Source: an uncultured Candidatus Binatia bacterium
GTDB taxonomy: Bacteria; Desulfobacterota; Binatia; UBA9968; JAJDTQ01
DNA: 64,000 nt
Assembly (NCBI GenBank): GCA_965261895.1
Contig: OZ253480.1
Location: forward strand, 3,947,665 to 4,011,664
Direction: 5' to 3'
Numbering within the stretch: position 1 is the stretch's first letter; each line of letters starts with the position of its first letter. Positions 2,358-17,759 of the stretch are shown in pieces. Made by a program: the position numbers and the translations under genes. A model generated the notes under the pieces. That model searched no databases. It was given only the letters and a program-made list of their open reading frames with translations, and was not told the origin of the DNA.

Positions 2358-2774
2358 ATGGCAGATGTATTTCCATATCTTCGCGGGGCGAGCAACCCGA
2401 GGCCGCTTGGGGAACGCGGAAGGATTGCCGTTGTCGTAAAGGCCGTGGTGCGTGCAGCAGATGCCTGGGGGCTGACCAACGTCGAGGGCGCGTCGCTGTT
2501 CGACGTGCCGACAGCTACCTGGGGCCGCATGAAGGCCGGGAGCTACAGAGGAACCCTCGACCAGGACAAGGTGACACGCGCAAGTCTGATCATCGGTCTG
2601 TTCAACGGACTCGCGCTACTCTTCAACGGACCGCTGGCCTATGGCTGGCCGAAGGCTCCCAACACCGGACTAGGTTTTGACGGCAGGACACCGGTCCAGG
2701 TCATGTGCGATGGCGGCATCCCCGCCATGATGAAGGTTCGCCAGCACATCGATGCGCTGAGAGGCGGGGCATGA
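2358..2774 (+). CDS. Xre/MbcA/ParS-like antitoxin (DUF2384 toxin-binding domain) of a RES-Xre TA pair
   Basis: 138 aa. Its C-terminal region (DQDKVTRASLIIGLFNGL...GRTPVQVM..GGIPAMM) is typical of antitoxins paired with RES toxins. Its stop overlaps the toxin start (ATGA). Confidence 0.7.
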   Translation: MADVFPYLRGASNPRPLGERGRIAVVVKAVVRAADAWGLTNVEGASLFDVPTATWGRMKAGSYRGTLDQDKVTRASLIIGLFNGLALLFNGPLAYGWPKAPNTGLGFDGRTPVQVMCDGGIPAMMKVRQHIDALRGGA

Positions 2775-3484
2775 TCCGTGCGGCGGACCTTCCGGTCCGC
2801 GACGTCGTCGAGCCAGCGACCGTTCGGCTGGTCACCGCGGCCTACACGGAGAAGTCGGCAATGGCTCTACTGGCCGACGACCCGTCCGAGCTTGCCTTCC
2901 TGGAAGAGATCGAAGGCTTTACATCGGCCCTGACGCCTTCTGCGTCGGCGATCCCGGCCGGTATCCAACCCGGAGAATTGCTGACCGAGGCAGACGGCTA
3001 CGGTTGGCGCTACGTGAATGCTGCATTCTGCCACACGCGCCCCACGGGCAATCGTTTCAACGGCCCGGAACGCGGAGCCTGGTATGCGTCGTACGGGAAC
3101 CAGGCGACCGACACGGCGAAGGCCGAGGTCGCGTGGCATCTCACGCGCGAGCTTCGCGCCACCGGCATCTACGAAAACATCACGACATACAGGGAACTCC
3201 TGGCCGGCTTCATGAGCCACTTTCATGATTTCGGCGAGAGGACGGACGACGTGGTCTACAGCGGAGACCCTGAGGTGGTCTATCCCGCCGGACAGGCGCT
3301 GGCGCGGGACATCCTGGCAAGCGGCGGAAACGGGGTGCTTTACCCGTCCGCTCGGTATGAAGGTGGAAAATATCTGGCGGCGTTGCGGCCCAATCTCGTG
3401 CAGAACATCCGGGAAGGGGAGACCTGGGGGTTCAGATGGGCGGGGTCGGCGGAGGTGGAGATATTGAGGGTGGAGTCAACTTGA
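2771..3484 (+). CDS. RES-domain toxin (MbcT/ParT-like NAD+-targeting family)
   Basis: 237 aa from the internal start MIRAADLPVRD. RES-domain signature (R...E...S spacing; NRFNGPERGAWYASY...TGIYENITTYRELLAGF). It is translationally coupled to the upstream antitoxin. Confidence 0.75.
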   Translation: MIRAADLPVRDVVEPATVRLVTAAYTEKSAMALLADDPSELAFLEEIEGFTSALTPSASAIPAGIQPGELLTEADGYGWRYVNAAFCHTRPTGNRFNGPERGAWYASYGNQATDTAKAEVAWHLTRELRATGIYENITTYRELLAGFMSHFHDFGERTDDVVYSGDPEVVYPAGQALARDILASGGNGVLYPSARYEGGKYLAALRPNLVQNIREGETWGFRWAGSAEVEILRVEST

Positions 3485-3686: not shown

Positions 3687-4079
3687 ATGAGCGTTGAGGG
3701 GGCCAAGAAGCACATAGCACGAGCGAAAAAGCAGTTGGAAAGGGTTCAAACGGCGTGGTTCGACTCACAGGAGGCTGAGCAGGCGGTGACGTGGGGCTTC
3801 TATGCGTATGAGAACTGTGTGACCGCGCTTGCAGAGCGATACGGTTACCAGTGGACACCCAATCACCGCAAGAAGGCGGACCTCGCCCGAAGGCTCTACG
3901 ACGACGGACTGATTTCACGGGATGTCGGCGATGACCTTGAGGAATTTAACAGGCTCAGGAAGGACGTTGCGTACGGGGAGCCTGGCTACGATCTATTGGC
4001 GGTAGACCTTGAAGAACTCGTGAGTGAACTCGAAGAGTTCGTCGAAGAGGTGGAATCTCGTATTGGCTCTTCAAAATGA
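3687..4079 (+). CDS. HEPN-domain protein
   Basis: 130 aa, all-helical. Its stop overlaps the start of the following nucleotidyltransferase gene (4076/4079). HEPN plus NTase gene pairs are a recognised TA architecture. Confidence 0.55.
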   Translation: MSVEGAKKHIARAKKQLERVQTAWFDSQEAEQAVTWGFYAYENCVTALAERYGYQWTPNHRKKADLARRLYDDGLISRDVGDDLEEFNRLRKDVAYGEPGYDLLAVDLEELVSELEEFVEEVESRIGSSK

Positions 4080-4738
4080 GCGCCACGGTGGAAGACAGAA
4101 GCAGGCTGGTGCTGGCTGCCTTGGGCCACGCCGGGCTTGGGGACCGAGAGACGGTGGTTCTCGTCGGCTCCTGCGCCCGTGGCGTCACGAATTCGCGTAG
4201 TGACATAGACATCCTTGTTCTCTGTGATGATCGAAATCGTATTCGGCTGAAACGTCCGGGCGATATTCACCTGCAACAGAACAGCCGTTCACGTTTCCTC
4301 AAGCGACTAAAGGAGGGCGACGACTATCCGGCGTGGGCGTTGCGCTTTGGCATACCCATACACGATCCGGGTGGTTGGTGGGCCGAACAGGCAGCTTCGG
4401 AGGCTGCGACCCCTCATTGGCCGGATTGGCGCGCCAAGTTAGAGCACGCCAGAAAGCGTACGAGGATGGCGTCCGAGTTGCTTGAGGTTGAAGACTCGTA
4501 CGCGGCATCGGAGGAGTTATTGTTTGCAGCTAGCCACATAGCCAGAGCAACCCTCCTTAGAGCCGGCGTGTTTCCCCTCTCGCGACCAGAGTTGCCCTCG
4601 CAGTTGAAAGCTGTCGACCCGAACCTTGCCCGGTTGCTTGAATTGCTTATGACCGGCGACACGGATGCGGTTAATCTGCAGGAGGGTGAGTCGCTTGTCA
4701 TGCACCGGATCAAGGAGCTTTCCGATGAGCCTCGATAG
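4076..4738 (+). CDS. Nucleotidyltransferase (MNT-like) domain protein
   Basis: Pol-beta-type NTase motif GSCARGVTNSRSDIDILVLCDD (GS...D.D). A C-terminal helical extension follows. Confidence 0.65.
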   Translation: MSATVEDRSRLVLAALGHAGLGDRETVVLVGSCARGVTNSRSDIDILVLCDDRNRIRLKRPGDIHLQQNSRSRFLKRLKEGDDYPAWALRFGIPIHDPGGWWAEQAASEAATPHWPDWRAKLEHARKRTRMASELLEVEDSYAASEELLFAASHIARATLLRAGVFPLSRPELPSQLKAVDPNLARLLELLMTGDTDAVNLQEGESLVMHRIKELSDEPR

Positions 4739-4856: not shown

Positions 4857-5510
4857 GTGACGAAGTCGAACGACAAATTGCGCGTTGAAATTGATCACCA
4901 ACAGTGGTCAAGCTTCTTCGATGAGTTGAAGTCGGAATCGGATCGGGGAGCGACGATTCTGGCCGGCGTGTGGATCGAGCAGTTGCTTGAACGCAAGCTC
5001 GCTACCTTGTTTACGGAAGGCAACTCGGATGCACGCAGGAGACTTTTCGACTTCAACGGGCCTTTCTCCGACTTCTCGTCCAAGATTCTTGCCGCATATT
5101 GTCTCGGCTGGATTGACTCGGACATCCACCACGATATTGATCTGGTTCGCAAGATCAGGAATCGCTTCGCCCATAGCCTCCATGGGTTGGATCTCGAAAG
5201 TCCACCGGTTCGACAGCTTATCGATGAATTTAAGGTTGCGGATCGTCACTACTACGATTGGACGGAGCTTCGAGCTGTCGCGACCGTGGATGGAAAAGGA
5301 TTCGTACTTTATACAGGCGAGCCACCGGAGGAAGCCGGAGACCCTTTGAAGATTCAGGCGTTTCGGTACAAATGGATCGTCAGCGTATTGGTCGCCGCGG
5401 TCGCGGCTAGTCTCGGCCTCGCTGTTCGGGATCAAGACCCCCAAACCGAAACCAATCCAGACCTAGGATCGGAACCGGACAGACCCGCACCGAAGACGAC
5501 GGGCGAGTGA
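4857..5510 (+). CDS. DUF4145-like (HEPN-family) protein with a C-terminal transmembrane helix, translationally coupled to hsdR
   Basis: An Rx4-6H HEPN-type motif (VRKIRNRFAHSLHG) and a hydrophobic C-terminal segment WIVSVLVAAVAASLGLAV. The stop overlaps the hsdR start (ATGA at 5507-5510). In many genomes DUF4145 is fused to the HsdR C-terminus. Confidence 0.4.
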   Translation: MTKSNDKLRVEIDHQQWSSFFDELKSESDRGATILAGVWIEQLLERKLATLFTEGNSDARRRLFDFNGPFSDFSSKILAAYCLGWIDSDIHHDIDLVRKIRNRFAHSLHGLDLESPPVRQLIDEFKVADRHYYDWTELRAVATVDGKGFVLYTGEPPEEAGDPLKIQAFRYKWIVSVLVAAVAASLGLAVRDQDPQTETNPDLGSEPDRPAPKTTGE

Positions 5511-8281
5511 GCGGAATGCTGAGCCCCAACCAGACCCCCGAACAGGCTGCCCGGGAAAGGATCGACGCGATGTTGTCCCACGCGGGCTGGGTCGTTCAGG
5601 ACAAGAAGAAGATCGACTTCAGCGTCAGCCTCGGGGTCGCCGTTCGCGAGTACCAGACTGATGTCGGTCCGGCGGACTACGTTCTCTTCGTCGACAAGAA
5701 GCCGGTTGGGGTCGTCGAGGCCAAGCCGAAGGTTTTGGGCCAGAAGATCACCACGGTCGAGGAACAATCCTCGGCCTACGCCGCCGCCAAGCTCAAGTGG
5801 GTGAACAATCGGGAGCCGCTGCCGTTCGTCTACGAGTCGACCGGCGTGTTGACCCGCTTCACCGATGGTCGCGATCCGAAGCCGCGGTCGCGTGAGGTGT
5901 TCTGCTTCCCTAGGCCGGAAATGGTTCAGGACTGGCGCGCCCAGCCGGCCTCGCTCCGTGAACGGCTCCAGGGGCTTCCGGTATTGGACCCGGCTGGCCT
6001 CCGGGCGTGCCAAATCAACGCCATCGAGAAGCTGGAGGCTTCCTTCAAGGATGATCGCCCGCGTGCCCTCATTCAGATGGCTACCGGCTCGGGCAAGACC
6101 TACACCGCCATTGGCTCCATCTACCGGCTGCTCAAGCACGCTGACGCCAAGAGGGTCCTGTTTCTCGTCGACACCAAGAATCTGGGCGAACAGGCCGAGC
6201 AGGAATTCATGGCCTATGTGCCCGGCGACGACAACCGCAAGTTCACCGAGCTTTATAACGTCCAACGCCTCAGGTCGTCCTTCGTCGCCAGGGACAGCCA
6301 TGTCTGTATCAGCACCATCCAGCGGGTGTACTCGCTCCTGAAGGGCCAGGAGTTGGACGAGTCCGCGGAGGAAACCAATCCGGAGGAGCTGGTTCAGCCC
6401 AAACAACCCATGCCGGTGGTCTACAATGAGAAGATTCCACCGGAGTTCTTCGACTTCATCATCATCGATGAGTGTCATCGGTCGATCTACAACCTCTGGC
6501 GTCAGGTCCTGGAGTATTTCGACGCCTATCTCATCGGCCTGACCGCTACACCGGACAGCCGCACCTACGGGTTCTTCAAGACCAACGTCGTCAGCGAATA
6601 CGACCACGAGCAGGCCGTCGCCGACGGCGTCAACGTGGGCAACGAGGTCTATGTCATCGATACGGAGAGGACCCGTCACGGCGGCCAGCTCAAGGCCAAC
6701 CAGCAGATTGAGAAGCGCGAGCGCCTGACTCGTCTGAGGCGCTGGCAAATACAGGAGGAGGACGCGACCTATGCCGGCAATCAGCTCGACCGCTCCGTAG
6801 TCAACCCGGATCAGATCCGCACCGTCGTCCGCACGTTCCGCGCCAAGCTGCCGGAGATATTCCCCGGCCGCAACGAAGTCCCGAAGACACTAGTCTTTGC
6901 CAAGACGGACAGCCACGCCGACGACATCATCCAGACCGTGCGCGAGGAGTTCGCCGAGGGCAACGAGTTCTGTAAGAAGATCACCTACAAGGTAGAAGAA
7001 GACCCGAAATCCGTCCTCGCGCAGTTCCGCAACGACTACTACCCGCGCATCGCCGTGACCGTGGACATGATTGCCACGGGCACGGACGTGAAGCCATTGG
7101 AATGCCTGCTCTTCATGCGCGACGTGCGGAGCCGCAACTACTTCGAACAGATGAAGGGCCGCGGCACCCGCACACTCGGCCACGATGATCTCAGGAAAGT
7201 CACCCCCTCGGCCCTCACCGCCAAGACCCACTACGTGATCGTGGACGCCGTGGGGGTCACCAAGTCGCTCAAGACCGTCAGCCAGTCGCTCATCACCAAG
7301 CCGTCCGTGCCGCTCAAGGATCTGGCCATGGGCGTGATGATGGGCGCTCGCGACGAAGACACAGTGAGCTCCCTGGCCGGCCGCCTCGCCCGGCTCAATC
7401 AACAACTCGATCCCGCGGAGCAGGAACGGATCAAGGCGAAGGCTGGGGGCACCGAGTTGACCGCTATCGTCGGCGATCTCCTGTCAGCCCTCGATCCTGA
7501 CCGCATCGACGAGAAGGCGCGCGAGATCGAGCCGGTGTTCGAAGGCGCCAGGCCCTCGCCAGTGGCTTACGACAAGGCGCGGGAACAGTTGGTCGGTGAC
7601 GCCGCGGCCGTGCTCAACGGGGAGTTGATCGAGTTGATCGACTCGATCCGCCGCGACAAGGAACAGACCATCGACCACGAGAGCCTGGACACCGTCCTGC
7701 GCGCCGAATGGGAGGGCGACGCCCAGGAGAACGCGAAGGCCATGGCCCAGGACTTCCAGACCTATCTGGAAGACCACCGCGACCGGATCGAAGCCCTGAC
7801 CATTTTCTACAGCCAGCCGCACCGCCGCCGCGACTTGACCTTCGTCATGATCCGAGAGGTCTTCGACAGGCTCAAGAGCGACCGCCCTCGATTGGCCCCA
7901 TTGCGAGTCTGGCAGGCCTACGCCCTGCTCGACGAATACAAAGGCGGTCAACCGGCCAGTGATTTGACGGCGCTGGTTGCCTTGATCCGCCGGGTCTGCG
8001 GCATTGACGCGACCTTATCGCCCTACGCGGAAACCGTGCGCCGCAATTTCCAGAACTGGATCATGACCCACCACAGCGGCGGCGGCGAGAAGTTCAACGA
8101 GGAGCAGATGGAGTGGCTCCGCATGATGCGGGACCACATCAGCCATTCCTTTCATCTGGAACGCAACGATCTCGACATGGCCCCGTTCGATGGCAAGGGC
8201 GGCATGGGCCGGATGTACAATCTGTTCGGCGACCGGATGGATGGCGTTATTGCTGAGTTGAATGAGGCGTTGGCGGGGTAA
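5507..8281 (+). CDS. hsdR: Type I restriction enzyme R subunit (HsdR)
   Basis: 924 aa. It has an N-terminal HSDR_N nuclease region (DYVLFVDKKPVGVVEAKP), helicase motif I ATGSGKTYTA, and motif II DECHRS. The hsdS start codon abuts its stop. Confidence 0.85.
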   Translation: MSGMLSPNQTPEQAARERIDAMLSHAGWVVQDKKKIDFSVSLGVAVREYQTDVGPADYVLFVDKKPVGVVEAKPKVLGQKITTVEEQSSAYAAAKLKWVNNREPLPFVYESTGVLTRFTDGRDPKPRSREVFCFPRPEMVQDWRAQPASLRERLQGLPVLDPAGLRACQINAIEKLEASFKDDRPRALIQMATGSGKTYTAIGSIYRLLKHADAKRVLFLVDTKNLGEQAEQEFMAYVPGDDNRKFTELYNVQRLRSSFVARDSHVCISTIQRVYSLLKGQELDESAEETNPEELVQPKQPMPVVYNEKIPPEFFDFIIIDECHRSIYNLWRQVLEYFDAYLIGLTATPDSRTYGFFKTNVVSEYDHEQAVADGVNVGNEVYVIDTERTRHGGQLKANQQIEKRERLTRLRRWQIQEEDATYAGNQLDRSVVNPDQIRTVVRTFRAKLPEIFPGRNEVPKTLVFAKTDSHADDIIQTVREEFAEGNEFCKKITYKVEEDPKSVLAQFRNDYYPRIAVTVDMIATGTDVKPLECLLFMRDVRSRNYFEQMKGRGTRTLGHDDLRKVTPSALTAKTHYVIVDAVGVTKSLKTVSQSLITKPSVPLKDLAMGVMMGARDEDTVSSLAGRLARLNQQLDPAEQERIKAKAGGTELTAIVGDLLSALDPDRIDEKAREIEPVFEGARPSPVAYDKAREQLVGDAAAVLNGELIELIDSIRRDKEQTIDHESLDTVLRAEWEGDAQENAKAMAQDFQTYLEDHRDRIEALTIFYSQPHRRRDLTFVMIREVFDRLKSDRPRLAPLRVWQAYALLDEYKGGQPASDLTALVALIRRVCGIDATLSPYAETVRRNFQNWIMTHHSGGGEKFNEEQMEWLRMMRDHISHSFHLERNDLDMAPFDGKGGMGRMYNLFGDRMDGVIAELNEALAG

Positions 8282-9871
8282 ATGTCACTAGGGGTTTCAC
8301 CGTTAGAAATCGTGGCGAAGGGCATTTATCATCTCCTCGCCAAAGCGGATCACTGGAAGCGTGTTTTCGTGTCCGAAGTCGCTCACGTGCAGAACGGCTT
8401 CGCGTTCAAATCCTTGTACTTTGATCCCGACCACGGGGTTCCACTCGTTCGCATCCGCGACATCTCCAAAGAAGAAACAGAACACCGGTATTTTGGGGAA
8501 TTCGATGACCAGTACTTGATAGAGAAGGGCGACATTCTTGTCGGAATGGACGGCGATTTCGCCGTGTCCCGATGGAGGGGTGGCAAGGCACTTCTAAATC
8601 AACGTGTATGCAAGGTCACAGTAACAAGTGATCGCTTTGATGAACGCTTTTTGTTCCTTTGCCTACAGCCTTTTCTGGACGCAATTAACGCCGAGACGTC
8701 GTCAGTAACCGTAAAGCATCTTTCTTCAAAGACTGTCGACGAAATTCCATTGCCCCTGCCGCCACTCGCGGAACAGCACCGCATCGTCGCCAAGATCGAA
8801 GAACTCTTCTCGGAACTCGACAAGGGCATCGAGACCCTGAAGACGGCACGCAGGCAGCTTGAAGTCTATCGACAGTCTGTCCTGAAGCACGCCTTCGAAG
8901 GGAAGCTCACGGCGCAATGGCGCGAAGAGAACAAGGACAAGCTTGAGACGCCTGAGCAATTGTTGGCTCGCATCAAGAAGGAGCGGGCGGCGCACTATGA
9001 GCGGCAACTCCAGGAGTGGAAGGCTAATGCCAACAGAGGGGAAAGGACTATCAGACGCAGTTTGGCTTCCAGGCCTGCCAAGCTGAAAGATGTTGCGCGA
9101 TTATCGCTCGAGGAGACGGAGACGCTTTCACCTCTCCCGGGTGGTTGGTCATATGTGCGGTTGGGTTTGGTGATCGACGAGCCCAAATACGGCACTTCCA
9201 AGAAATGTGACTACAATTTCGAGGGAACGGGGGTTCTAAGGATCCCTAACGTCGTCCGCGGCCTCATTGATGACGCTGATTTAAAGGGTGCTTGCTTTGA
9301 AGACGATGAGAAATGGGCCTACTCTTTGAGAAGCGGCGATATTCTGATGATCCGGTCCAACGGCAGCATTTCGATAGTTGGGAAGTGTGCGCTGGTCTCC
9401 AGTGCAGAGCAACGGTATCTGTATGCAGGATACCTAATTCGCATTCGCCCCAACCCCGCCGTGGTGCTTCCGGAATACCTTGCCGTGCTCATATCTAGTC
9501 ATCCGGTACGAGTTCAGATCGAAGGCTTTGCGAAATCGACGAGCGGCGTGAACAACATAAACTCTGGTGAAATCCAGTCATTGATCGTGCCATTGTGCCG
9601 TGTACAAGAACAACAGGAGATGGTTGCGCAGTTGTCCGCGATGATCTCGGGGATGGACGCGACTACCACCGAGATCGACGAACAGTTGCGTACAACCGAT
9701 ACGCTCCGTCAAGCGGTCCTGAAGAAAGCCTTCGCCGGTCAACTAGTCCCCCAAGACCCCGGCGATGAGCCTGCTTCTGTTCTTCTGGAGAAGATCAGGA
9801 CGGAGCGGGCGAAGGCCGGCAAGGGCGGCCCAACCGCCAGAAGAAACAAAAAGGCGAAGACTGCGGCATGA
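8282..9871 (+). CDS. hsdS: Type I RM specificity subunit (HsdS), two target-recognition domains
   Basis: 529 aa. It has a duplicated TRD architecture and conserved central and C-terminal coiled-coil repeats (LPPLAEQHRIVAKIEELF; LRQAVLKKAF). GC content is lower than the surrounding genes. Confidence 0.8.
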   Translation: MSLGVSPLEIVAKGIYHLLAKADHWKRVFVSEVAHVQNGFAFKSLYFDPDHGVPLVRIRDISKEETEHRYFGEFDDQYLIEKGDILVGMDGDFAVSRWRGGKALLNQRVCKVTVTSDRFDERFLFLCLQPFLDAINAETSSVTVKHLSSKTVDEIPLPLPPLAEQHRIVAKIEELFSELDKGIETLKTARRQLEVYRQSVLKHAFEGKLTAQWREENKDKLETPEQLLARIKKERAAHYERQLQEWKANANRGERTIRRSLASRPAKLKDVARLSLEETETLSPLPGGWSYVRLGLVIDEPKYGTSKKCDYNFEGTGVLRIPNVVRGLIDDADLKGACFEDDEKWAYSLRSGDILMIRSNGSISIVGKCALVSSAEQRYLYAGYLIRIRPNPAVVLPEYLAVLISSHPVRVQIEGFAKSTSGVNNINSGEIQSLIVPLCRVQEQQEMVAQLSAMISGMDATTTEIDEQLRTTDTLRQAVLKKAFAGQLVPQDPGDEPASVLLEKIRTERAKAGKGGPTARRNKKAKTAA

Positions 9872-9941
9872 ACACTGCCCTCATCGTGCTCCCCGCCTAT
9901 TATGCCACCCGGCCCCACGTGCACGACGCCAAGGTAACGGT

Positions 9942-11528
9942 ATGACTGGCAAGCTTCCCATCAACCTTCACGATCTGCTGCGCCAGCGGACCATCGAGGG
10001 CGAGCGCGTCGAGTACAAAGCCGGTTGGAATCCGAAGGCCGTGCTGCACGCCATCTGCGCCTTCGCCAACGACTTCCACAATCTGGGCGGCGGTTACGTG
10101 GTACTGGGAGTCGAGGAACAAAACGGCCGTCCAGTCTTGCCGCCCATGGGCATCAATCCCGATTCGGTTGACGCGATACAGAGAGAACTGCTGAATCTTG
10201 GACACTCGGCCATACAACCTCACTACCACCCGCTTACAGCCACTTATGAAGTCAATGGCCGGACAATCCTCGTATTGTGGGCGCCCGGCGGCGAAACCCG
10301 ACCCTACAAGGCCAGACTCAGCCTGACGCCGAAACGGCAAGAGTGGGGCTATTTCAACCGCAAGCACAGCAGCACCGTCCGCGCCAAGGGCCAAGACGAG
10401 CGCGAGCTGCTAAGCCTGACCGCCACCGTGCCCTTTGATGATCGATATCGCCAAACGGCTTCACTGGATGACCTGTCCCATCGGCTCATCCGGGAGTTTC
10501 TGCGGGATATTGGCAGCGACCTCGCTTCTGAAGCAGCCGATCTATCGGTGGCGGCCCTTGGTCAGCGTATGAATATCGTCGGCGGACCGCCCGAGGCAGT
10601 GTTTCCCAAGAACGTCGGCTTGCTGTTCTTCAACGACCGCCCGCACGACTTCTTCCCCGCAACCCAGATCGACGTAGTGTGGTTCCCGGACGGCCCGGGT
10701 GGGGACCAATTCGAGGAAAAGGAATTCCGCGGTCCTCTGTCGGTCATCCTCAGCGAGGCGATCAGCTACATTGAGCGGAACTACCTGAAGGAAACAATCG
10801 TCAAGCATCCTCACAAGCCGGAAGCTGAGCGATTCTGGAACTTTCCCATCGGCGCAATCGAGGAGGCGCTGGTCAATGCCGTCTACCATCGCTCTTACGA
10901 GGAGCGGGAGCCAGTGGAGGTGCGCATCACGCCTGACGAGTTGGTGGTCTTGAGCTTCCCCGGCGCCGACCGATCCATCCGCATGGAAGACTTCAAGAAA
11001 GGGTAAGCCGTCAGCCGCCGCTACCGCAATCGCCGAATTGGAGAGTTTCTCAAGGAGCTAGAACTGGCCGAAGGCAGGTCAACTGGGGTACCCAAGATTC
11101 TGCGGGCCATGCGGCAAAACGGCTCCCCGGCCCCGATCTTCGAGAGCGACGAAGATCGCACCTGGTTTCTGGTCCGTCTGCCGGTGCATGAACGGGCGCG
11201 CCCGGAGCCATCCGGGCAAGATACCCAGCAAGACACCGAACATGACACCGGGCAAGTCACCGGGCAAGATACCGGGCAAGTCACCGATCATGTCGAGCAA
11301 CTGGTGGCGGCCCTCACCGGAGAGATGAGCCGCGCTGAATTGCAGGCGGCGTTGAGCTTGACTCACCGGGACTACTTCACCGCGACGTATCTGCGACCCG
11401 CCCTCGAAGCCGGCCTGATTGAAATGACGCTCCCCGACAAACCAACCAGCCGAAACCAGCGTTATCGGCGCACCGCGGCCGGCGAAGCCCTGGCGCGACA
11501 AGCCAAGACGAAGGACTCCTCCGCATGA
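9942..11528 (+). pseudogene. AlbA_2 (Schlafen-like) + HATPase_c_4 'RecG-like' putative regulator commonly found in type I RM operons, interrupted by an in-frame TAA at 11004-11006
   Basis: The N-terminal part (9942-11006) starts MTGKLPINLHDLLRQRTIEGERVEYK. After TAA the same frame continues (AVSRRYRNRRIGEFLKELELAEGRSTGVPKILRAMRQNGSPAPIFESD...) to 11528, which is the canonical C-terminal portion of this family. A QDT/GQVT low-complexity repeat lies at ~11217-11290. Confidence 0.6.
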
Positions 11529-13018
11529 ACACCGCCCCCATCGTCTCCAAAGTCTGGAGCTTCTGTACCACCCTGCGCGACGACGGGGTGGGCTACGGCG
11601 ACTACCTGGAACAGCTTACCTATCTGATCTTCCTCAAGATGGCTGACGAGTACGGGAAGCCGCCGCGCAATCGTGATGTGGGCATCCCAGCCGAGTACAA
11701 CTGGCCGAGCCTGAGGTCGAAGCGGGGCGCGGAACTGGAAAACCACTACGTCACGCTGCTTCGTGAGCTTGGCGCCAAGAACGGCATGCTGGGCCAGATC
11801 TTCACCAAGGCCCAGAACAAGATCCAGGATCCGGCGAAGCTGTATCGCCTGATCGATATGGTGGACAATACCGAGTGGGTCACCATGGACGCCGACATCA
11901 AGGGCGACATCTATGAGGGCCTGCTGGAGAGGAATGCCGAGGACACGAAGTCGGGCGCGGGGCAGTATTTCACGCCGCGCGCCCTGATCCGCGCCATGGT
12001 GGAATGCGTTCGGCCCGAGCCAAGCAGGCTGATCGCCGACCCCGCCTGCGGCACGGGCGGGTTCTTCCTGGCGGCCTACGACTTCCTCACCAACCAGGAC
12101 AACTTCAACCTCGACCAGCGGCAGAAGGCATTTCTGAAGCACGAGGCCTTTCACGGTAACGAGATCGTGGCCAACACCCGTCGCCTCTGTCTGATGAACA
12201 TGTTCCTTCACAACATCGGCGAGATCGACGGTGGCGCGCCAATATCGCCCAATGACTCGCTCGTGGCCGATGCCGGACAGCGCTTCGACTACGTGTTCGC
12301 GAACCCTCCTTTCGGCAAGAAGAGCTCCATGAGTTTCACCAATGAGGAGGGCGGGCAGGAGACGGACGATCTGACCTACAACCGGCAGGATTTCTGGGCC
12401 ACTACCTCAAACAAGCAGCTCAATTTCGTGCAGCACATTCGGACCATGCTCAAGAGCGACGGCCGCGCCGCGGTCGTGGTGCCGGACAACGTGCTGTTCG
12501 AGGGCGGCGCCGGCGAGACCATCCGGAAGAAGCTGCTGGACAACACCGACCTCCACACCATCCTGCGCCTTCCCACCGGCGTGTTCTACGCCCAAGGGGT
12601 CAAAGCCAACGTGATCTTCTTCGACAATCGCGAAGCCAGCCCCGACCCGTGGACGAAACAGGTCTGGTACTACGACTACCGCACCAACATTCACCACACG
12701 CTCAAGAAGAAGCCCATGCGCTACGAGGACCTGCTGGATTTCGTCAAGTGCTACAACCCGCGGAACCGGCATCAGCGCAAGGCCGCCTGGGATGAGAACG
12801 ACGCCCCCGAGGGCCGTTGGCGCAGCTACAGCTATGAGGAGCTCAGGGCCCGCGACAAGACCAGCCTCGACGTCTTCTGGCTCAAAGACAAGAGTCTGAC
12901 CGACCTGGACAACCTGCCGGAACCCGACGATCTCGCCGAAGAGATCATCGAGAACCTCGAAGCGGGCCTTAACAGTTTCCGCGAGGTGCTCGCCGGCTTG
13001 CGGCAGGCAGGTAGTTGA
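11525..13018 (+). CDS. hsdM: Type I RM N6-adenine DNA methyltransferase subunit (HsdM)
   Basis: 497 aa with the SAM motif DPACGTGGF and the catalytic motif IV FANPPFG. Its start overlaps the stop of the preceding gene fragment. Confidence 0.85.
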   Translation: MNTAPIVSKVWSFCTTLRDDGVGYGDYLEQLTYLIFLKMADEYGKPPRNRDVGIPAEYNWPSLRSKRGAELENHYVTLLRELGAKNGMLGQIFTKAQNKIQDPAKLYRLIDMVDNTEWVTMDADIKGDIYEGLLERNAEDTKSGAGQYFTPRALIRAMVECVRPEPSRLIADPACGTGGFFLAAYDFLTNQDNFNLDQRQKAFLKHEAFHGNEIVANTRRLCLMNMFLHNIGEIDGGAPISPNDSLVADAGQRFDYVFANPPFGKKSSMSFTNEEGGQETDDLTYNRQDFWATTSNKQLNFVQHIRTMLKSDGRAAVVVPDNVLFEGGAGETIRKKLLDNTDLHTILRLPTGVFYAQGVKANVIFFDNREASPDPWTKQVWYYDYRTNIHHTLKKKPMRYEDLLDFVKCYNPRNRHQRKAAWDENDAPEGRWRSYSYEELRARDKTSLDVFWLKDKSLTDLDNLPEPDDLAEEIIENLEAGLNSFREVLAGLRQAGS

Positions 13019-13070
13019 GTGTGCGAACCGCCTGGTCGTGTAGACTCGGCGTCCAAAGAAAGGACTAACG

Positions 13071-14231
13071 ATGACGTGGTTCGATTGGCGAAGGCGGGCG
13101 CGGCATCCTGTGGGGCAAAAGTGGCGCATTGATGAGCAGGAGTTTGGGGTTATCGACTTGGGTCGCGATATGAGCCGTGATCTGAGGAGCCATATCGACA
13201 AGGTAGTAGGCATACGCGGCAAGCCCTTCGAGACCGGAGGTGTCTTGAGTCCGGCATTCTTCCCGATCGCAGGTGCTGGTGCGGGGATGGCATCCTCCCT
13301 TTTTGCCGGCAACGTGTTTTTGGCAACCGCCAACAATCCCGCCACCCTGATGCAAATCGGCGCGGGTGTTGGGTCTGCGGTTATGGGACCGACCGGGGTG
13401 ATTGCGCACGCCCCGTTTATTGCAGCGGGTGGCGCCATAATCCCAGTGGTTGCACCGGTTCTGCTCTTCACTGCGGTAGCGGCGATGGCGATATGTGCCC
13501 GTTTGGATCGGCTTCAAGTCTCCCTGGAGCGAATTGAAAGCTTGGTCAAGCAGTTGTTGGCACAAGAACTCGCCGAAGACAGCGCCCTCCTCGTCAGTGC
13601 GATGCAACGCCTTGAAGACATCTCCGCAGAGTTCGAAGGATGCGGACGGTTTACCGAAGAAATGAAGATTCGGTTGGCGTTGGCCGAACGGGATCTCAAC
13701 GTACTGCACCACAAATACGAAATCCTTTCGGGATTGGAAGTTGACGATCAAACTGGCGCCGAGCTTGGGGTGCTCCGCACCAAACTCTTTGCCATGTCGA
13801 GCATTGCAGATATCAGGGTGGACCGCCTCCGGTTCAAACTGGCTCTCCAGGACAATCCGGAGTATTTCGATAGACGGTTTTCCATGATGATTTCGAAGAT
13901 CGCCCTGTATGAAGCCTCATTCGGATATCTCGCGGAGACCACCCCGTTGAAACAACGCCAGGATGAGTTGCAGACAGCCGTCGACGACATGGGTTTCTTG
14001 ATGAAGAACGTCTTCGCAAGGCAAAAATTCAAGAAGACGATAGCCGAGATTGAGGCGACTGCTGAAAAGGTGAAACAAATCCAAGAGATCCTGAGTTCAC
14101 CTGTTGACCCTAAGTCAGACGACAGTTCGGAACAGCAGCATTTCGTTTACTACCGTGAGCAGAACGGCAAGGGAGACTTGAAGGCGTACTATACCGCTGA
14201 CTTGAAGCTCGTGGCGCAGGAGGCAGCCTGA
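13071..14231 (+). CDS. Uncharacterised protein: Gly/Ala-rich predicted 2-TM N-terminal region plus a long C-terminal coiled coil, encoded directly downstream of hsdM
   Basis: 386 aa. The hydrophobic glycine-zipper-like segments are AGAGAGMASSLFAGNVFLATANN and GAIIPVVAPVLLFTAVAAMAICARL, followed by heptad-rich helices. No family was recognised by eye. GC is lower than in neighbouring genes. Confidence 0.5.
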   Translation: MTWFDWRRRARHPVGQKWRIDEQEFGVIDLGRDMSRDLRSHIDKVVGIRGKPFETGGVLSPAFFPIAGAGAGMASSLFAGNVFLATANNPATLMQIGAGVGSAVMGPTGVIAHAPFIAAGGAIIPVVAPVLLFTAVAAMAICARLDRLQVSLERIESLVKQLLAQELAEDSALLVSAMQRLEDISAEFEGCGRFTEEMKIRLALAERDLNVLHHKYEILSGLEVDDQTGAELGVLRTKLFAMSSIADIRVDRLRFKLALQDNPEYFDRRFSMMISKIALYEASFGYLAETTPLKQRQDELQTAVDDMGFLMKNVFARQKFKKTIAEIEATAEKVKQIQEILSSPVDPKSDDSSEQQHFVYYREQNGKGDLKAYYTADLKLVAQEAA

Positions 14232-14266: not shown

Positions 14267-14543
14267 GTGGAGAAAACAACTGAACGCCGAAGAACGGGAG
14301 ATTCTGGAGCATTTCGAGCGGGGCGAGTTGACGGCTGCATCCCAAGCTCAGCGTGAGATGGAGACGGCACAGCATGCGGCCTGCAACACGTTCAACAAGA
14401 CCCGGAGAGTCAACCTGCGGGTCACCGAGCGCGACTTCAACCTCGCGCACGCGCGTGCGCGCTAGGAGGGTATCCCGTACCAGACGCTGTTATCGAGCGT
14501 CATTCACAAGTACCTTTCCGGACGGCTGACCGAGAACAGGTAA
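14267..14543 (+). pseudogene. BrnA/CopG-family antitoxin remnant (COG3514-like), carrying a frameshift and an in-frame amber codon
   Basis: The family signature ...NKTRRVNLRVTERDFNLAHARAR*EGIPYQTLLSSVIHKYLSGRLTE is present. A TAG at 14463-14465 replaces the usual Glu codon (GAG). The N-terminal KQLNAEEREILEHFERGEL is in frame only if one A is removed from the A4 run just after the GTG at 14267. No BrnT-like toxin gene lies upstream. Confidence 0.5.
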
Positions 14544-14644: not shown

Positions 14645-14770
14645 TCTCGTCACCGGGCCACCGGCTACATCGGCGGCAGACTGGCTCCCCGTCCGCTCGA
14701 AGAAGGCTATCGCGTACGTGTTCTGGCCCCGCAGCGCGGCACGGGTGCGCTCACGTTCTTTTCCGGTTAA
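14645..14770 (+). repeat. Truncated, frameshifted copy A of the promoter-proximal 5' end of the SDR/epimerase gene found intact at 30650
   Basis: ctcgtcaccgg-gccaccggctacatcggcggc...gttctggccccgcagcgcggcacgggtgcgctcacgttcttttccggttaa aligns with 30701-30808 and with copy B. It would encode ILVTG(A)TGYIGG...VRVLARSAARVRSRS. Confidence 0.7.
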
Positions 14771-15035: not shown

Positions 15036-15266
15036 ATGAAAAGGTTTCCTCGTATCACTCTCGATCCTGATGTCATGGCCGGCAAGGCATGCATTCGGGG
15101 ACTACGGGTAACGGTTGGAACTGTCGTGGGGCTTCTGGCAGCCGGTCGGTCAGCCGAGGAAATCCTGAGCGCCTACCCTTACCTTGAACGAGAAGATATC
15201 GACCAATCCCTGGCCTACGCCGCCTGGCGGCTGGAAGAACGCGAGGTTCCTCTTTCCGTCTCATGA
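15036..15266 (+). CDS. DUF433-family protein (antitoxin-like partner)
   Basis: 76 aa with the DUF433 signature (ITLDPDVMAGKACIRGLRVTVGTVVGLLAAGRSAEEILSAYPYLEREDI). It overlaps the downstream gene by 4 bp. Confidence 0.65.
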   Translation: MKRFPRITLDPDVMAGKACIRGLRVTVGTVVGLLAAGRSAEEILSAYPYLEREDIDQSLAYAAWRLEEREVPLSVS

Positions 15267-15631
15267 CCGTGAAGCTCCTGGTCGACATGAATCTGTCGCC
15301 TGACTGGGTGCCAGTGCTGAAGAGCCACGGATGGTCAGTAGTCCATTGGTCAACGGTAGGCGACCCACGGGCCAGTGACCGGACCATCATGGAGTGGGCT
15401 GCGAAGCACGAGTACGTTGTGTTGACCCACGATCTGGATTTCAGCGCAATGCTGGCACTGTCCCACGCGGCCGGCCCAAGTGTCCTTCAGGTCAGGGCCG
15501 GAGATATATTACCAGATCATCTCGAAGGTTCGGTCATCGCTGCCCTCCGGCAGAACGATGCCGACTTATCGTCGGGAGCGCTGGTCGTAGTGGACATAAA
15601 CAGAAGTCGGGTTCGCATACTACCGCTATGA
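15263..15631 (+). CDS. DUF5615-family (PIN-like) protein, partner of DUF433
   Basis: 122 aa beginning MTVKLLVDMNLSPDWV...VLTHDLDF. The DUF433-DUF5615 pair is a recurring predicted TA module. Confidence 0.65.
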   Translation: MTVKLLVDMNLSPDWVPVLKSHGWSVVHWSTVGDPRASDRTIMEWAAKHEYVVLTHDLDFSAMLALSHAAGPSVLQVRAGDILPDHLEGSVIAALRQNDADLSSGALVVVDINRSRVRILPL

Positions 15632-15671: not shown

Positions 15672-15796
15672 CTCGTCACCGGCGCCACCGGCTACATCGG
15701 CGGCGGACTGGTTCCCCGCCTGCGGGAAGAAGGCCGTCGCGTGCGTGTTCTGGCCCGCAGCGCGGCGCGGGTTCGCTCACGTTCTATTCCGGTTAA
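15672..15796 (+). repeat. Truncated copy B of the SDR/epimerase 5' end (including ~25 bp of its upstream region)
   Basis: ctcgtcaccggcgccaccggctacatcggcggcggactggttccccgcctgcgggaagaaggccgtcgcgtgcgtgttctggcccgcagcgcggcgcgggttcgctcacgttctattccggttaa. Upstream similarity (aggaagaaagaggccataggta vs gaaagaaggaaaggcgataggta at ~30633) extends the homology. Confidence 0.7.
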
Positions 15797-16480: not shown

Positions 16481-16916
16481 ATGGCGTGAGACCTGGAGAA
16501 TGGCGCGTCCATTTCGAGACAGTCGCGGCGAAAGACTTCTCAGGCCCCTCGGGGACCGCGACAGGATCGCGGTTGTCGTAAAGGCCGTGGTGCGCGCGGC
16601 TGATGCATGGGGTTTGACCAATATCGAGGGCGCGGCCCTGTTCGACGTGCCCACGGCCACCTGGAGCCGCATGAAGGCCGGCAGCTACAGGGGCACACTC
16701 GATCAGGACAAGGTGACACGGGCAAGTCTGATAATCGGGTTGTTCAACGGGCTCGCGTCACTCTTCAACGGCCCGCTGGCCCATGGCTGGCCCAACGTTC
16801 CCAACACCGGCCCCGTTTTCGACGGCAGGACGCCGGTCCAGGTCATGTGCGAAGGCGGCATCCCCGCCATGATGACGGTACGACAGCACATCGATGCGCT
16901 GAGAGGCGGGGCATGA
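16476..16916 (+). CDS. Xre/MbcA/ParS-like antitoxin (DUF2384), second diverged copy
   Basis: 146 aa, highly similar to 2358-2774 at ~85-90% nucleotide identity by eye. The ATGA overlaps the toxin start. Confidence 0.7.
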   Translation: MIWRETWRMARPFRDSRGERLLRPLGDRDRIAVVVKAVVRAADAWGLTNIEGAALFDVPTATWSRMKAGSYRGTLDQDKVTRASLIIGLFNGLASLFNGPLAHGWPNVPNTGPVFDGRTPVQVMCEGGIPAMMTVRQHIDALRGGA

Positions 16917-17626: not shown

Positions 17627-17759
17627 CCTCGTGAGAATGGGAGTTTCAAGGAAGGCGTTCATGCGCAGTAGCAGCATTCAATCTTTTGCCCACACACAAA
17701 CAAGGGTTGTTTCTCGATGCAAGAAAACTTGTGCCACAACAAGAAGTCTTGTAACGTAG

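What the first reader, a model, noticed from the sequence alone, without database searches (positions are those of the whole stretch)
4857..14231. Type I RM with unusual gene order and three non-canonical passengers
The order is DUF4145/HEPN-like (coupled by ATGA to hsdR), hsdR, hsdS (abutting), an AlbA_2/HATPase_c_4 regulator, hsdM (ATGA-coupled), then a 386-aa 2TM coiled-coil protein. Placing hsdM last, separated from hsdS by a regulator gene, is atypical. The upstream HEPN-like protein carries a C-terminal TM helix. The downstream membrane/coiled-coil protein has no recognisable family. The locus looks like an RM system with embedded abortive-infection-type partners.
Basis: partly seen in the sequence, partly recalled or inferred. 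Interest (0 to 1): 0.55.

Follow-up and report, generated by a model that had tools for sequence, protein, structure and literature searches.

The report
Type I restriction system with passenger genes
This is an ordinary type I restriction-modification locus of a clade that normally has the order hsdR-hsdS-(passenger)-hsdM; it sits in a decaying toxin-antitoxin/defence island, next to a stand-alone HEPN RNase gene, with a broken Schlafen-ATPase passenger inside it and an uncharacterised membrane protein downstream that is not a conserved partner.

Summary
The genes are at the stated coordinates, but several details were wrong. The order hsdR-hsdS-X-hsdM is the norm for this HsdM clade. Six of seven annotated plasmid loci that I opened, from four phyla, have hsdS before hsdM, with DUF262, GIY-YIG, an AAA ATPase or hypothetical genes in the S-M slot.

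The "regulator" is a Schlafen(AlbA_2)-GHKL ATPase-wHTH protein, a kind already reported as linked to RM systems. Here an in-frame TAA at 11004-11006 cuts it; five related loci have CAA at that codon.

The 217-aa protein is a HEPN protein of the MtlR-like family, not DUF4145. It keeps an RNxxxH motif, and after MtlR and YggD its next structural match is the Abi tRNase HepS. Its "TM helix" is the last helix of the fold. It lies next to hsdR only in close relatives. Distant homologues stand alone among transposases.

The 386-aa protein belongs to an uncharacterised family of 386 representative clusters. It has a Gly/Ala-rich hydrophobic region and a helical bundle, and no family or fold match. 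No neighbour is conserved across 80 loci.

The verdict is a known theme (genes embedded in or beside type I RM), partly decayed, with low-to-moderate interest.

The parts
3687..4079 (+). 130-aa HEPN-like protein, first gene of a HEPN/MNT pair (context, upstream of the finding)
   Evidence: Pfam HEPN E 4e-4. In L004 a 70%-identical homologue, together with its MNT partner, lies directly upstream of a p386 paralogue.
4076..4738 (+). 220-aa minimal nucleotidyltransferase (MNT), which overlaps the HEPN gene by 4 nt
   Evidence: Pfam NTP_transf_2 E 4.6e-7. Weak matches to NCBIfam MntA and HalB.
4857..5510 (+). p217: stand-alone MtlR-like HEPN protein with the motif R101-N102-x3-H106; a putative RNase (toxin or Abi type)
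   Evidence: - Pfam MtlR in 22 of 24 family members.
- AlphaFold2 model with pLDDT 79.
- Foldseek: MtlR 3brj E 9e-6, YggD, then HepS 9oij with probability 0.98.
- RNxFAH conserved in 22 of 24.
- phrog_22031 E 1e-9.
5507..8281 (+). hsdR (924 aa from GTG 5507; alternative ATG at 5516)
   Evidence: - ResIII E 3e-41, EcoEI_R_C E 1e-36, HSDR_N and Helicase_C.
- PADLOC REase_I.
- PD..ExK (PADYV..VEAKP), GSGKT and DECH motifs read directly in the translation.
- 89-90% identical to HsdR of L012-L015.
8282..9871 (+). hsdS (529 aa, two target-recognition domains)
   Evidence: Methylase_S in two stretches, and PADLOC Specificity_I E 5e-112. Only residues 142-517 align to L013 (85%), and L014/L015 align at 40%, which indicates swapped recognition domains.
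9942..11006 (+). N-terminal fragment (354 aa) of a Schlafen(AlbA_2)-GHKL ATPase-wHTH gene, ending at a premature TAA
   Evidence: SLFN_AlbA_2 E 3.5e-10. Matches to the PADLOC SLFN-pAgo N-terminal region. Intact orthologues of 520-547 aa carry AlbA_2, HATPase_c_4 and Fic-like_C.
11004..11006 (+). In-frame TAA nonsense codon (CAA in relatives), inside the GHKL/HATPase_c_4 domain
   Evidence: Sequence read directly. Alignment A2 shows CAA in L009, L013, L014, L015 and L018. Most members of the same 90% cluster are 520-532 aa.
11007..11528 (+). C-terminal remainder of the Schlafen-GHKL gene in the same frame (rest of GHKL, linker, wHTH). An ORF can restart at ATG 11109. Its stop overlaps the hsdM start (ATGA).
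   Evidence: Fic-like_C E 5.8e-25. Same frame as 9942. 79-92% identical to orthologues.
11212..11292 (+). 12-nt tandem repeat that encodes a (G/Q/D/T)-rich linker of the Schlafen-GHKL protein
   Evidence: the repeat finder family D2. The translation reads GQDTQQDTEHDTGQVTGQDTGQVT.
11525..13018 (+). hsdM (497 aa)
   Evidence: N6_Mtase E 7e-71 and HsdM_N. PADLOC MTase_I E 1e-197. Motifs DPACGTGGF and NPPF read in the translation. 93-94% identical to orthologues.
13071..14231 (+). p386: uncharacterised membrane/coiled-coil protein. Layout: N-terminal beta-hairpin, Gly/Ala/Pro-rich hydrophobic region 54-146, helical bundle 147-342, C-terminal beta-hairpin. It is a neighbour, not a demonstrated partner.
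   Evidence: - No Pfam, NCBIfam, PADLOC or PHROG family.
- No PDB or BFVD fold match.
- 386 representative clusters.
- No conserved neighbour in 80 loci.
14268..14540 (+). Pseudogene of a 91-aa ribbon-helix-helix (CopG/BrnA-like by eye) protein, with the start codon lost and an internal stop
   Evidence: tblastn with the intact 91-aa genes of L001 and L089 gives 89% identity, with W in place of M/V at residue 1 and a stop in place of E.

Best explanation
The core is a complete type I restriction-modification system. HsdM and HsdS methylate a bipartite target, and HsdR translocates and cuts unmethylated DNA. It belongs to a clade whose standard layout is hsdR-hsdS-(variable slot)-hsdM.

The slot between hsdS and hsdM holds a Schlafen(AlbA_2)-GHKL ATPase-wHTH gene. 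By analogy with characterised prokaryotic Schlafen proteins, this is a candidate ATP-switched tRNA/RNA nuclease. In this genome a C>T nonsense mutation inside the GHKL domain has cut it, so it is most likely inactive.

Directly upstream, with its stop overlapping the hsdR start, lies a stand-alone MtlR-like HEPN protein with an intact RNxxxH active site. I infer that it is an autonomous, HepS-like latent RNase (toxin or abortive-infection type) that a recent rearrangement placed beside hsdR. I do not think it is an RM-dependent subunit.

The 386-aa membrane/coiled-coil gene downstream of hsdM is an independent gene of unknown function that shares this variable island.

The whole region (Xre-RES twice, HEPN-MNT, DUF433-DUF5615, RM) is a plastic toxin-antitoxin/defence island in an uncultured, probably sponge-associated bacterium. 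It is decaying in different ways in sister genomes.

Shown: domain content, motifs, the nonsense codon, clade-wide gene order, and lack of conserved linkage. Inferred: activity of the RM system, RNase activity and the Abi role of p217, and inactivity of the truncated Schlafen protein.
For: RM core:
- Domains and motifs are intact.
- The order hsdS-before-hsdM, with or without passengers, is seen in six of seven annotated loci of the same HsdM clade:
  - Gemmobacter: R-S-DUF262-M.
  - Vibrio: S-M.
  - Pusillibacter: R-x-x-S-x-x-M.
  - Pantoea: S-AAA-hyp-M.
  - Polymorphobacter: R-S-M.
  - Streptomyces: R-S-GIY-YIG-M.

Passenger:
- Intact orthologues have AlbA_2, HATPase_c_4 and Fic-like_C.
- TAA versus CAA in five loci.
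- The literature reports that ATPase-containing Schlafen homologues are tightly associated with RM systems and that prokaryotic Schlafens cleave tRNA (PMC13462974). It also reports that the SLFN+GHKL "Schlatpase" module occurs stand-alone or fused to HsdS in type I RM operons of Poribacteria, and that GHKL-driven tetramerisation is needed for activity (bioRxiv 10.64898/2026.05.29.728809).

p217:
- HEPN fold and motif.
- HepS is a single-domain HEPN Abi tRNase of about 190 aa with R100/N101/H105 (PMC13043305).
- Some MtlR-family members are predicted to be active RNases, and HEPN-RM combinations are common (PMC3710099).
- Distant homologues stand alone among transposases, integrases and resolvases.
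- The orthologous RM loci L012-L015 lack p217.

p386:
- The window's RM cassette adjoins the p386 homologue only in the window's own lineage among 80 loci, plus weak (24-28%) HsdM/HsdS-like hits elsewhere in a few 21-kb loci.
- No recurrent neighbour cluster.
- Neighbours in other phyla are metabolic genes.

Decay:
- L089, L001, L018 and L096 have lost or fragmented hsdR and/or hsdS.
- There is a pseudogene at 14268-14540.
Against: - The tight spacing, the common strand and the absence of terminator-like sites between genes are compatible with one transcript, so functional coupling cannot be excluded.
- The frame MNT-p217-hsdR...hsdM-p386 is kept in relatives at 82-92% identity.
- A different p386 paralogue (51% identity) abuts hsdR in the sister genomes L012-L015. 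This is an unexpected second juxtaposition of this family with the same RM locus.
- The TAA could be an assembly error. The exact 354-aa product was found on only two contigs, which may come from one sample.
- No experiment bears on any activity.
- The similarity to HepS is structural only and weak (TM 0.42-0.47, E 0.05). There is no sequence-level match.
Confidence: 0.7

Rival explanations
1. Integrated multi-layer system. On this view p217 and/or p386 are functional partners of the RM complex. One version has p217 as a PrrC-like latent RNase held in check by HsdR/HsdM and released when a phage anti-restriction protein attacks the enzyme. Another has p386 as a membrane-disrupting effector triggered by the same event.
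For: - The p217 stop overlaps the hsdR GTG start. p386 follows hsdM by 52 nt here and overlaps it by 4 nt in L089. All genes are co-directional, with no terminator-like site between them.
- The frame is conserved in L089 and L096.
- A p386 paralogue abuts hsdR in L012-L015.
- The PrrC precedent and HEPN-RM combinations are described in PMC3710099.
Against: - p217 homologues at 55-70% identity are stand-alone genes in regions rich in mobile elements, with no type I RM beside them.
- p217 lacks the ATPase domain of PrrC.
- Sister genomes run the same RM system without p217.
- Only the window's lineage among 80 p386 loci has this RM system beside it, and no neighbour family recurs.
- p386 and hsdM persist where hsdR and hsdS are lost.
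- There are no PADLOC, SLATT or Zorya-type matches for p386.
Confidence: 0.12
2. HEPN-MNT-p386 is an ancestral three-gene module, a toxin-antitoxin-like pair plus a membrane protein. In the window's lineage an insertion of the p217+RM cassette split it, so p386 belongs functionally with the HEPN/MNT pair at 3687-4738 and not with the RM system.
For: - In L004 (same genome as L001), homologues of the window's HEPN (70%) and MNT (78%) lie directly upstream of a p386 paralogue (55%).
- That trio sits between two CoA-transferase genes, like an inserted block.
- In the window the same pair and p386 bracket exactly the p217-RM segment.
Against: - There is only one such locus (in three assemblies) among 88. 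No other p386 locus has HEPN/MNT homologues at E < 1e-5.
- In L012-L015 a p386 paralogue sits after Xre-RES instead.
- The three paralogues are only 51-56% identical, so no recent common arrangement can be traced.
- No flanking direct repeats of the trio were found in L004.
Confidence: 0.1
3. The locus is a non-functional remnant. The RM system and its neighbours are pseudogenising, and none of the accessory genes does anything now.
For: - Nonsense codon in the Schlafen-GHKL gene.
- Dead 91-aa gene at 14268-14540.
- Independent deletions of hsdR and hsdS in L001, L018, L089 and L096, and fused or frameshifted gene calls P0152 and P0163 in other assemblies.
Against: - hsdR, hsdS, hsdM, p217 and p386 are all full length in the window with their catalytic motifs intact.
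- They are 82-94% identical to intact relatives.
Confidence: 0.08

Closest known systems
Type I RM operons with embedded defence genes (V. cholerae VPI-2 T1RM with TgvAB; C. jejuni RloF; the "guilt-by-embedding" survey of Payne et al. 2024)
   Same: A complete hsdR/hsdS/hsdM set is interrupted by an unrelated nuclease-type gene. The slot content varies between relatives: DUF262, GIY-YIG, AAA ATPase or Schlafen-GHKL.
   Different: The embedded gene here is a Schlafen-GHKL protein and it is truncated. No activity has been tested. The order is R-S-X-M.
Prokaryotic Schlafen-GHKL ("Schlatpase") proteins linked to RM systems; SLFN-pAgo; Cash
   Same: AlbA_2 (PF04326) plus HATPase_c_4 (PF13749) architecture in the intact orthologues. 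Position inside a type I RM operon, as reported for Poribacteria. Matches to the PADLOC SLFN-pAgo N-terminal models.
   Different: It has no Argonaute or CARF-like sensor, and it has a C-terminal Fic-like_C wHTH. The window copy carries a premature stop in the GHKL domain.
HepS (Gifsy-1 prophage single-domain HEPN abortive-infection tRNase)
   Same: Single HEPN domain of about 190-217 aa. R-N-x3-H at residues 101-106, against 100-105 in HepS. Stand-alone gene in mobile regions. Foldseek probability 0.94-0.98.
   Different: No sequence-level similarity. TM-score is only 0.42-0.47. The closest fold is MtlR/YggD. It is not in a recognisable prophage. Trigger and substrate are unknown.
MtlR/YggD family (mannitol operon repressor; HEPN fold)
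   Same: Best sequence match (profile E 4.7e-7 to 3brj) and best structural match (E 9e-6), covering helices up to the C-terminal one.
   Different: In the alignment, V. parahaemolyticus MtlR has K and S at the R and H positions of the motif. p217 keeps RNxFAH. It has no mannitol-operon context.
PrrC/EcoprrI (anticodon nuclease guarded by a type I RM enzyme)
   Same: A HEPN-type RNase gene is physically joined to a type I RM operon (PMC3710099).
   Different: PrrC has an N-terminal ABC-type ATPase and is found almost only embedded in type I RM systems. p217 has no ATPase domain, lies upstream of hsdR, and its homologues mostly stand alone.

Membership tests
Type I restriction-modification system | HsdR with an SF2 helicase/translocase core (Walker A, DEAD/DEAH box) and a PD-(D/E)xK nuclease motif | tested here: met
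   ResIII E 3e-41, Helicase_C and HSDR_N. GSGKT, DECH and PADYV...VEAKP read in the translation.
Type I restriction-modification system | HsdM gamma-class N6-adenine methyltransferase with an AdoMet motif and NPPF | tested here: met
   N6_Mtase E 7e-71 and HsdM_N. DPACGTGGF and NPPFG in the translation.
Type I restriction-modification system | HsdS with two target-recognition domains separated by conserved helical regions | tested here: met
   Two Methylase_S stretches, and PADLOC Specificity_I E 5e-112 over residues 21-521.
Type I restriction-modification system | Sequence-specific methylation and ATP-dependent restriction | not testable with these tools
   This needs methylome data or an enzyme assay.
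Classical type IA/IB/IC operon layout (hsdM immediately upstream of hsdS) | hsdM-hsdS adjacent and in that order | tested here: not met
   The order is hsdR-hsdS-X-hsdM. The same order is seen throughout the HsdM clade.
HEPN superfamily (p217) | Rx4-6H motif on the fourth core helix | tested here: met
   R101-N-R-F-A-H106, conserved as RNxFAH in 22 of 24 family members.
HEPN superfamily (p217) | All-alpha up-down helical bundle similar to solved HEPN structures | tested here: met
   AlphaFold2 model pLDDT 79. Foldseek matches MtlR, YggD and HepS with probability 0.94-1.0.
DUF4145 (PF13643) (p217) | Significant match to the Pfam model | tested here: not met
   No hit for the window protein. Only 4 of 24 family members match, at E >= 0.041, against 22 of 24 for MtlR.
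HepS-like single-protein Abi | Phage-triggered tRNA anticodon cleavage; tetramer; prophage-borne | not testable with these tools
   Only fold and motif resemblance is available. No prophage genes were seen around it.
PrrC-type RM-guarded anticodon nuclease | N-terminal ABC-type ATPase fused to the HEPN nuclease, embedded in type I RM operons | tested here: not met
   No ATPase domain in p217. Homologues are mostly not next to RM systems.
Schlafen-GHKL ("Schlatpase") proteins | SLFN_AlbA_2 domain followed by a complete HATPase_c_4 (GHKL) domain in one polypeptide | tested here: not met
   This is met in the orthologues L013 and L096. In the window the reading frame stops at TAA 11004-11006 inside the GHKL domain, and only AlbA_2 is detected in the 354-aa fragment.
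Known 2TM or membrane defence effectors (SLATT, Zorya ZorA/B and others in PADLOC) for p386 | Match to a family model | tested here: not met
   No Pfam, NCBIfam, PADLOC or PHROG hit at E <= 0.01 apart from a sub-threshold coiled-coil match. No PDB or BFVD fold match at E < 0.09.
Defence-system component by genomic association (p386) | Conserved linkage to defence genes across lineages | tested here: inconclusive
   No neighbour cluster occurs in more than 7 of 80 loci. About 10% of immediate neighbours are of RM, mobile-element or TA type, but control ORFs 7.5 kb away look similar. The ORF sets are crude and were not matched.

The most novel reading that the evidence does not exclude
The 386-aa protein may represent a new family of membrane-inserted, coiled-coil effectors or sensors that travels with toxin-antitoxin and restriction modules. 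Three observations leave this open:
- A HEPN-MNT-p386 trio appears to be inserted between CoA-transferase genes in L004.
- Two different paralogues sit at opposite ends of the same RM locus in sister genomes.
- Distant members carry N-terminal RRM or GYF fusions.

On this reading it would act as an abortive-infection or addiction effector.
Probability: 0.12. Interest if true: 0.6.

Novelty: new member of a known kind. Interest (0 to 1): 0.3.

Why it matters
This mainly serves as a corrective. The "unusual" order is the rule for a widespread type I clade whose hsdS-hsdM junction acts as a docking slot for diverse nuclease-type passengers. That makes the clade a useful place to harvest candidate defence genes.

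The locus adds one more natural example of a Schlafen-GHKL gene inside a type I operon, caught in the act of being lost. It also adds an MtlR-like HEPN protein that kept its catalytic motif, which supports the idea that this "repressor" family includes active toxins.

The 386-aa family is truly uncharacterised. It is widespread in uncultured, largely sponge-associated bacteria of many phyla and often has several copies per genome. Nothing here ties its function to restriction.

Tried and rejected
- DUF4145 assignment for p217: rejected by Pfam on 24 family members.
- TM anchor for p217: rejected by family conservation and by homology of that helix to soluble MtlR.
- Cross-phylum horizontal transfer of the RM cassette. 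I considered this, because about 90% identical genes appeared in MAGs labelled Binatia, Thermodesulfobacteriota and Deltaproteobacteria. I rejected it because blastn shows 82-91% identity over many other genes too, so these are related genomes despite their labels.
- Context of the Schlafen-GHKL protein on annotated plasmids: the three best hits were not in type I operons and were uninformative.
- Fold searches of p386 against PDB and BFVD gave only generic helical-bundle noise.
- PHROGs, PADLOC and NCBIfam gave nothing for p386.
- Flanking repeats of the HEPN-MNT-p386 trio in L004: none convincing, only a 42-nt inverted repeat on one side.
- Promoter and terminator scans matched the shuffled expectation and are uninformative.
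- tRNA and Rfam scans of the whole window found nothing.
- Defence enrichment test for p386 neighbours against controls at 7.5 kb: no clear difference, and the ORF sets were not well matched.
Full report
**1. What is in the sequence**

Six co-directional ORFs occupy 4857-14231 on the + strand.

The three core genes are a complete type I RM set:
- hsdR (5507-8281) has ResIII, Helicase_C, HSDR_N and EcoEI_R_C. The translation shows PD..ExK, GSGKT and DECH.
- hsdS (8282-9871) has two Methylase_S stretches.
- hsdM (11525-13018) has HsdM_N and N6_Mtase, with DPACGTGGF and NPPF.

The junctions were read directly:
- The stop of the 217-aa ORF overlaps a GTG start of hsdR (GTGA, not ATGA). An ATG nine bases downstream is the start used in the source assembly.
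- hsdS begins on the base after the hsdR stop.
- hsdM overlaps the preceding ORF by ATGA.
- The 386-aa ORF follows hsdM after 52 nt and has its own Shine-Dalgarno sequence.

Consensus promoter and terminator scans are at the shuffled expectation and say nothing either way. The window has no tRNA gene and no Rfam match.

**2. The gene between hsdS and hsdM is broken**

In five homologous loci the codon is CAA (alignment A2).

The orthologues are single genes of 520-547 aa with SLFN_AlbA_2, HATPase_c_4 and a Fic-like_C winged helix. The stop falls inside the GHKL/HATPase_c_4 domain. The exact 354-aa product is on record from only two contigs, while most members of its 90% cluster are 520-532 aa. 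The change is therefore a lineage-specific nonsense mutation or an assembly error.

This architecture is the "Schlatpase" supradomain. Two 2026 papers bear on it:
- ATPase-containing Schlafen homologues are tightly associated with RM systems, and prokaryotic Schlafens cleave tRNA (PMC13462974).
- The SLFN+GHKL module occurs stand-alone or fused to HsdS in type I RM operons of Poribacteria, with GHKL-driven tetramerisation needed for nuclease activation (bioRxiv 10.64898/2026.05.29.728809).

A nuclease-type passenger of a known kind is thus a better description than "regulator". The truncated copy here is probably inactive (inference).

**3. The gene order is typical of the clade**

I used tblastn with HsdM against annotated plasmids and inspected seven loci.

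| Organism | HsdM identity | Order |
|---|---|---|
| Gemmobacter | 76% | R-S-DUF262-M |
| Vibrio | 75% | S-M |
| Pusillibacter | 62% | R-x-x-S-x-x-M |
| Streptomyces | 50% | R-S-GIY-YIG-M |
| Pantoea | 47% | S-AAA ATPase-hyp-M |
| Polymorphobacter | 47% | R-S-M |
| Methylomonas | 80% | lone hsdM |

hsdS before hsdM is therefore the norm in this clade across four phyla, and the S-M junction is a variable slot. Genes embedded in type I RM operons are an established theme: TgvAB in V. cholerae (PMC11411939), and 17,432 genes embedded in BREX, DISARM or type I RM systems in Payne et al..

**4. The 217-aa protein**

Pfam gives only a sub-threshold MtlR hit for the window protein. Across 24 family members, 22 match MtlR (best E 8.8e-8), while DUF4145 appears in 4 at E >= 0.04.

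A profile of the family matches MtlR 3brj at E 4.7e-7. The AlphaFold2 model (pLDDT 79) matches MtlR, YggD and then HepS, the Gifsy-1 single-domain HEPN abortive-infection tRNase (probability 0.94-0.98, TM 0.42-0.47).

The motif R101-N-x3-H106 is conserved as RNxFAH in 22 of 24 members. HepS has R100/N101/H105 (PMC13043305). In the alignment, V. parahaemolyticus MtlR has K and S at the R and H positions. Anantharaman et al. noted that some MtlR-family members are predicted to be active RNases and that HEPN-RM combinations are common (PMC3710099).

The supposed C-terminal TM helix (166-185) is modelled at about pLDDT 85 as the last long helix. It aligns to the C-terminal helix of soluble E. coli MtlR and contains a central Glu/Asp in 19 of the 21 full-length homologues. 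The window protein and its nearest relative have Ala there. I therefore do not accept a membrane anchor.

Context:
- Relatives at 82% identity keep MNT-p217-hsdR (L096/L097).
- Homologues at 55-70% identity are stand-alone genes among transposases, integrases and resolvases. One lies next to a type ISP enzyme.
- The orthologous RM loci L012-L015 have no p217 at all.
- The protein matches a phage-protein family of unknown function, phrog_22031, at E 1e-9.

The best reading is an autonomous, mobile HEPN toxin or Abi gene recently placed beside hsdR.

**5. The 386-aa protein**

It has no Pfam, NCBIfam, PADLOC or PHROG family. The family is real and well conserved: 211 proteins in the word-indexed search, and 386 representative clusters at E <= 1e-3 among 1.84 billion.

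The most conserved part is a Gly/Ala/Pro-rich hydrophobic region (residues about 52-146), followed by an invariant Arg144.

| Region | Residues | AlphaFold2 result |
|---|---|---|
| N-terminal beta-hairpin and helix | 14-49 | low to moderate confidence (pLDDT about 54-61) |
| Gly/Ala/Pro-rich region | 54-123 | not modelled (pLDDT 24-36) |
| Very long helix | starts at 124 | modelled; contains the only strongly hydrophobic stretch |
| Helical bundle | to 342 | pLDDT 80-93 |
| C-terminal beta-hairpin | 357-375 | low confidence (pLDDT about 46-59) |

Foldseek against PDB and BFVD returns nothing below E 0.09. Some distant members carry N-terminal GYF_2 or RRM_1 domains. These fusions suggest a cytoplasmic N-terminus but give no function.

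Context:
- In 80 loci from genome assemblies (all MAGs, many phyla, many with sponge-type bin names), the window's RM cassette adjoins the p386 homologue only in the window's own lineage. A few other loci carry weak (24-28%) HsdM/HsdS-like hits somewhere within their 21 kb.
- The largest neighbour cluster covers 7 loci of one order. It is a sacsin/NOV_C-like giant protein of about 1,950 aa.
- No Pfam family occurs in more than 2 of 109 immediate neighbours.
- About a tenth of immediate neighbours are of RM, mobile-element or TA type, but ORFs 7.5 kb away look similar (BrxL twice, CRISPR-associated, transposases). The two sets were not well matched, so this is inconclusive.
- In Gammaproteobacteria and Acidobacteriota the gene sits among metabolic genes.

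**6. The island and its relatives**

blastn shows that L001/L009, L012-L015, L018, L089 and L096 share 82-91% nucleotide identity with the window over many segments. These include non-defence genes now tens of kilobases away in the window. They are related genomes despite different taxon labels, so the 90% identity of the RM genes is not evidence of cross-phylum transfer.

| Source | Arrangement |
|---|---|
| Window | Xre RES, HEPN MNT, p217, R S X* M, p386A, dead 91-aa gene, DUF433-DUF5615, GFA(-), Xre RES |
| L096 | Xre RES, MNT, p217, R, S fragments, intact Schlafen-GHKL, M, p386A |
| L089 | MNT, 265-aa R fragment, Schlafen-GHKL, M, p386A |
| L001 | transposase, truncated Schlafen-GHKL, M, p386A |
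| L013 | GFA(-), Xre RES, p386C, R S X M, NYN |
| L004 | HEPN MNT p386B, between two CoA-transferase genes |

Here R, S and M stand for hsdR, hsdS and hsdM, X for the Schlafen-GHKL gene, and X* for the truncated copy. The three p386 paralogues are 51-56% identical to each other.

Two things remain unexplained by pure chance. Different p386 paralogues sit at either end of the same RM locus in sister genomes, and a HEPN-MNT pair precedes a paralogue in L004. I keep these as low-probability rival readings. The simpler explanation is that all of these genes accumulate in one variable hotspot. Two features mark that hotspot: duplicated Xre-RES pairs, and 114-nt direct repeats of the 5' end of a displaced epimerase gene flanking the DUF433-DUF5615 pair.

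**7. Verdict**

The locus is a new member of a known kind: a clade-typical R-S-X-M type I RM system with an RM-linked Schlafen-GHKL passenger (here truncated), a juxtaposed stand-alone HEPN RNase candidate, and an unrelated uncharacterised membrane protein. Interest is low to moderate.

Noticed in passing
window 14268-14540 (+): Pseudogene of a 91-aa ribbon-helix-helix (CopG/BrnA-like by eye) protein that is intact after p386 or hsdM in L001, L089 and L015. In the window the start codon is replaced by TGG and there is an internal stop.
   Followed up: partly
window 14657-14770 and 15684-15796 (also 30694 onwards): Two 114-nt direct repeats (88-93% identical) are copies of the 5' end of the epimerase/NmrA-like gene that now lies at 30694-31973. 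They flank the DUF433-DUF5615 (PIN-like) toxin-antitoxin pair at 15036-15631, as if cassettes were inserted repeatedly at that gene's start.
   Followed up: partly
window 2358-3477 and 16500-17627: The Xre-like HTH / RES toxin-antitoxin pair is present twice as direct repeats (about 81% identical) that bracket the whole HEPN-MNT / p217 / RM / p386 segment. In L096 the blocks are in a different order, which suggests recombination between the copies.
   Followed up: partly
L004 8791-11191 (MAG OZ220712.1): Homologues of the window's HEPN (70%) and MNT (78%) lie directly upstream of a p386 paralogue (55%). The three genes sit between two CoA-transferase genes like an inserted block. A 42-nt inverted repeat (8471-8512 / 8604-8645) lies at its left edge.
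   Followed up: partly
L009-L088 (genome-contig hits of the p386 family): The family was found only in MAGs, across many phyla (Binatia, Vicinamibacterales, Longimicrobiales/Gemmatimonadota, Nitrospirales, Gammaproteobacteria, Spirochaetia, Latescibacterota). Many have sponge-type bin names (RHO, COS, APA, Palauibacter), and there are often two copies per genome. This could be habitat-linked or a sampling bias.
   Followed up: no
P0193, P0201, P0188 (GYF_2) and P0261, P0270, P0293 (RRM_1): Distant p386-family members carry N-terminal GYF_2 or RNA-recognition-motif domains in front of the hydrophobic/coiled-coil module.
   Followed up: partly
L044 11113-16890, L051, L053, L055, L068 4042-9921: In Longimicrobiales the p386 homologue lies within about 15 nt of a giant protein of about 1,950 aa with sacsin-like (SACS) and NOV_C domains. 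This is the only neighbour recurring in several loci (7, one lineage).
   Followed up: partly
window 8282-8700 versus L013-L015 hsdS: The first target-recognition domain of HsdS differs between the window and L013 (alignment starts at residue 142). L014 and L015 HsdS are only about 40% identical although HsdR and HsdM are about 90%. This is the pattern of recognition-domain swapping between close relatives.
   Followed up: no
window 11212-11292: A 12-nt tandem repeat encodes a Gly/Gln/Asp/Thr-rich linker between the GHKL and wHTH parts of the Schlafen-GHKL protein. Its length differs among relatives.
   Followed up: no
L013 18857-19711: In the sister genome the slot downstream of hsdM holds a NYN-domain (RNase-type) gene instead of p386. 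NYN proteins were among the embedded defence candidates (HEC-09) validated by Payne et al.
   Followed up: no
L001, L018, L089, L096; proteins P0152, P0163: The same RM locus is decaying independently in relatives. hsdR and/or hsdS are deleted or fragmented, one case has a Transposase_31 gene, and there are fused p217-HsdS and p217-HsdR gene calls. hsdM and p386 stay intact.
   Followed up: partly
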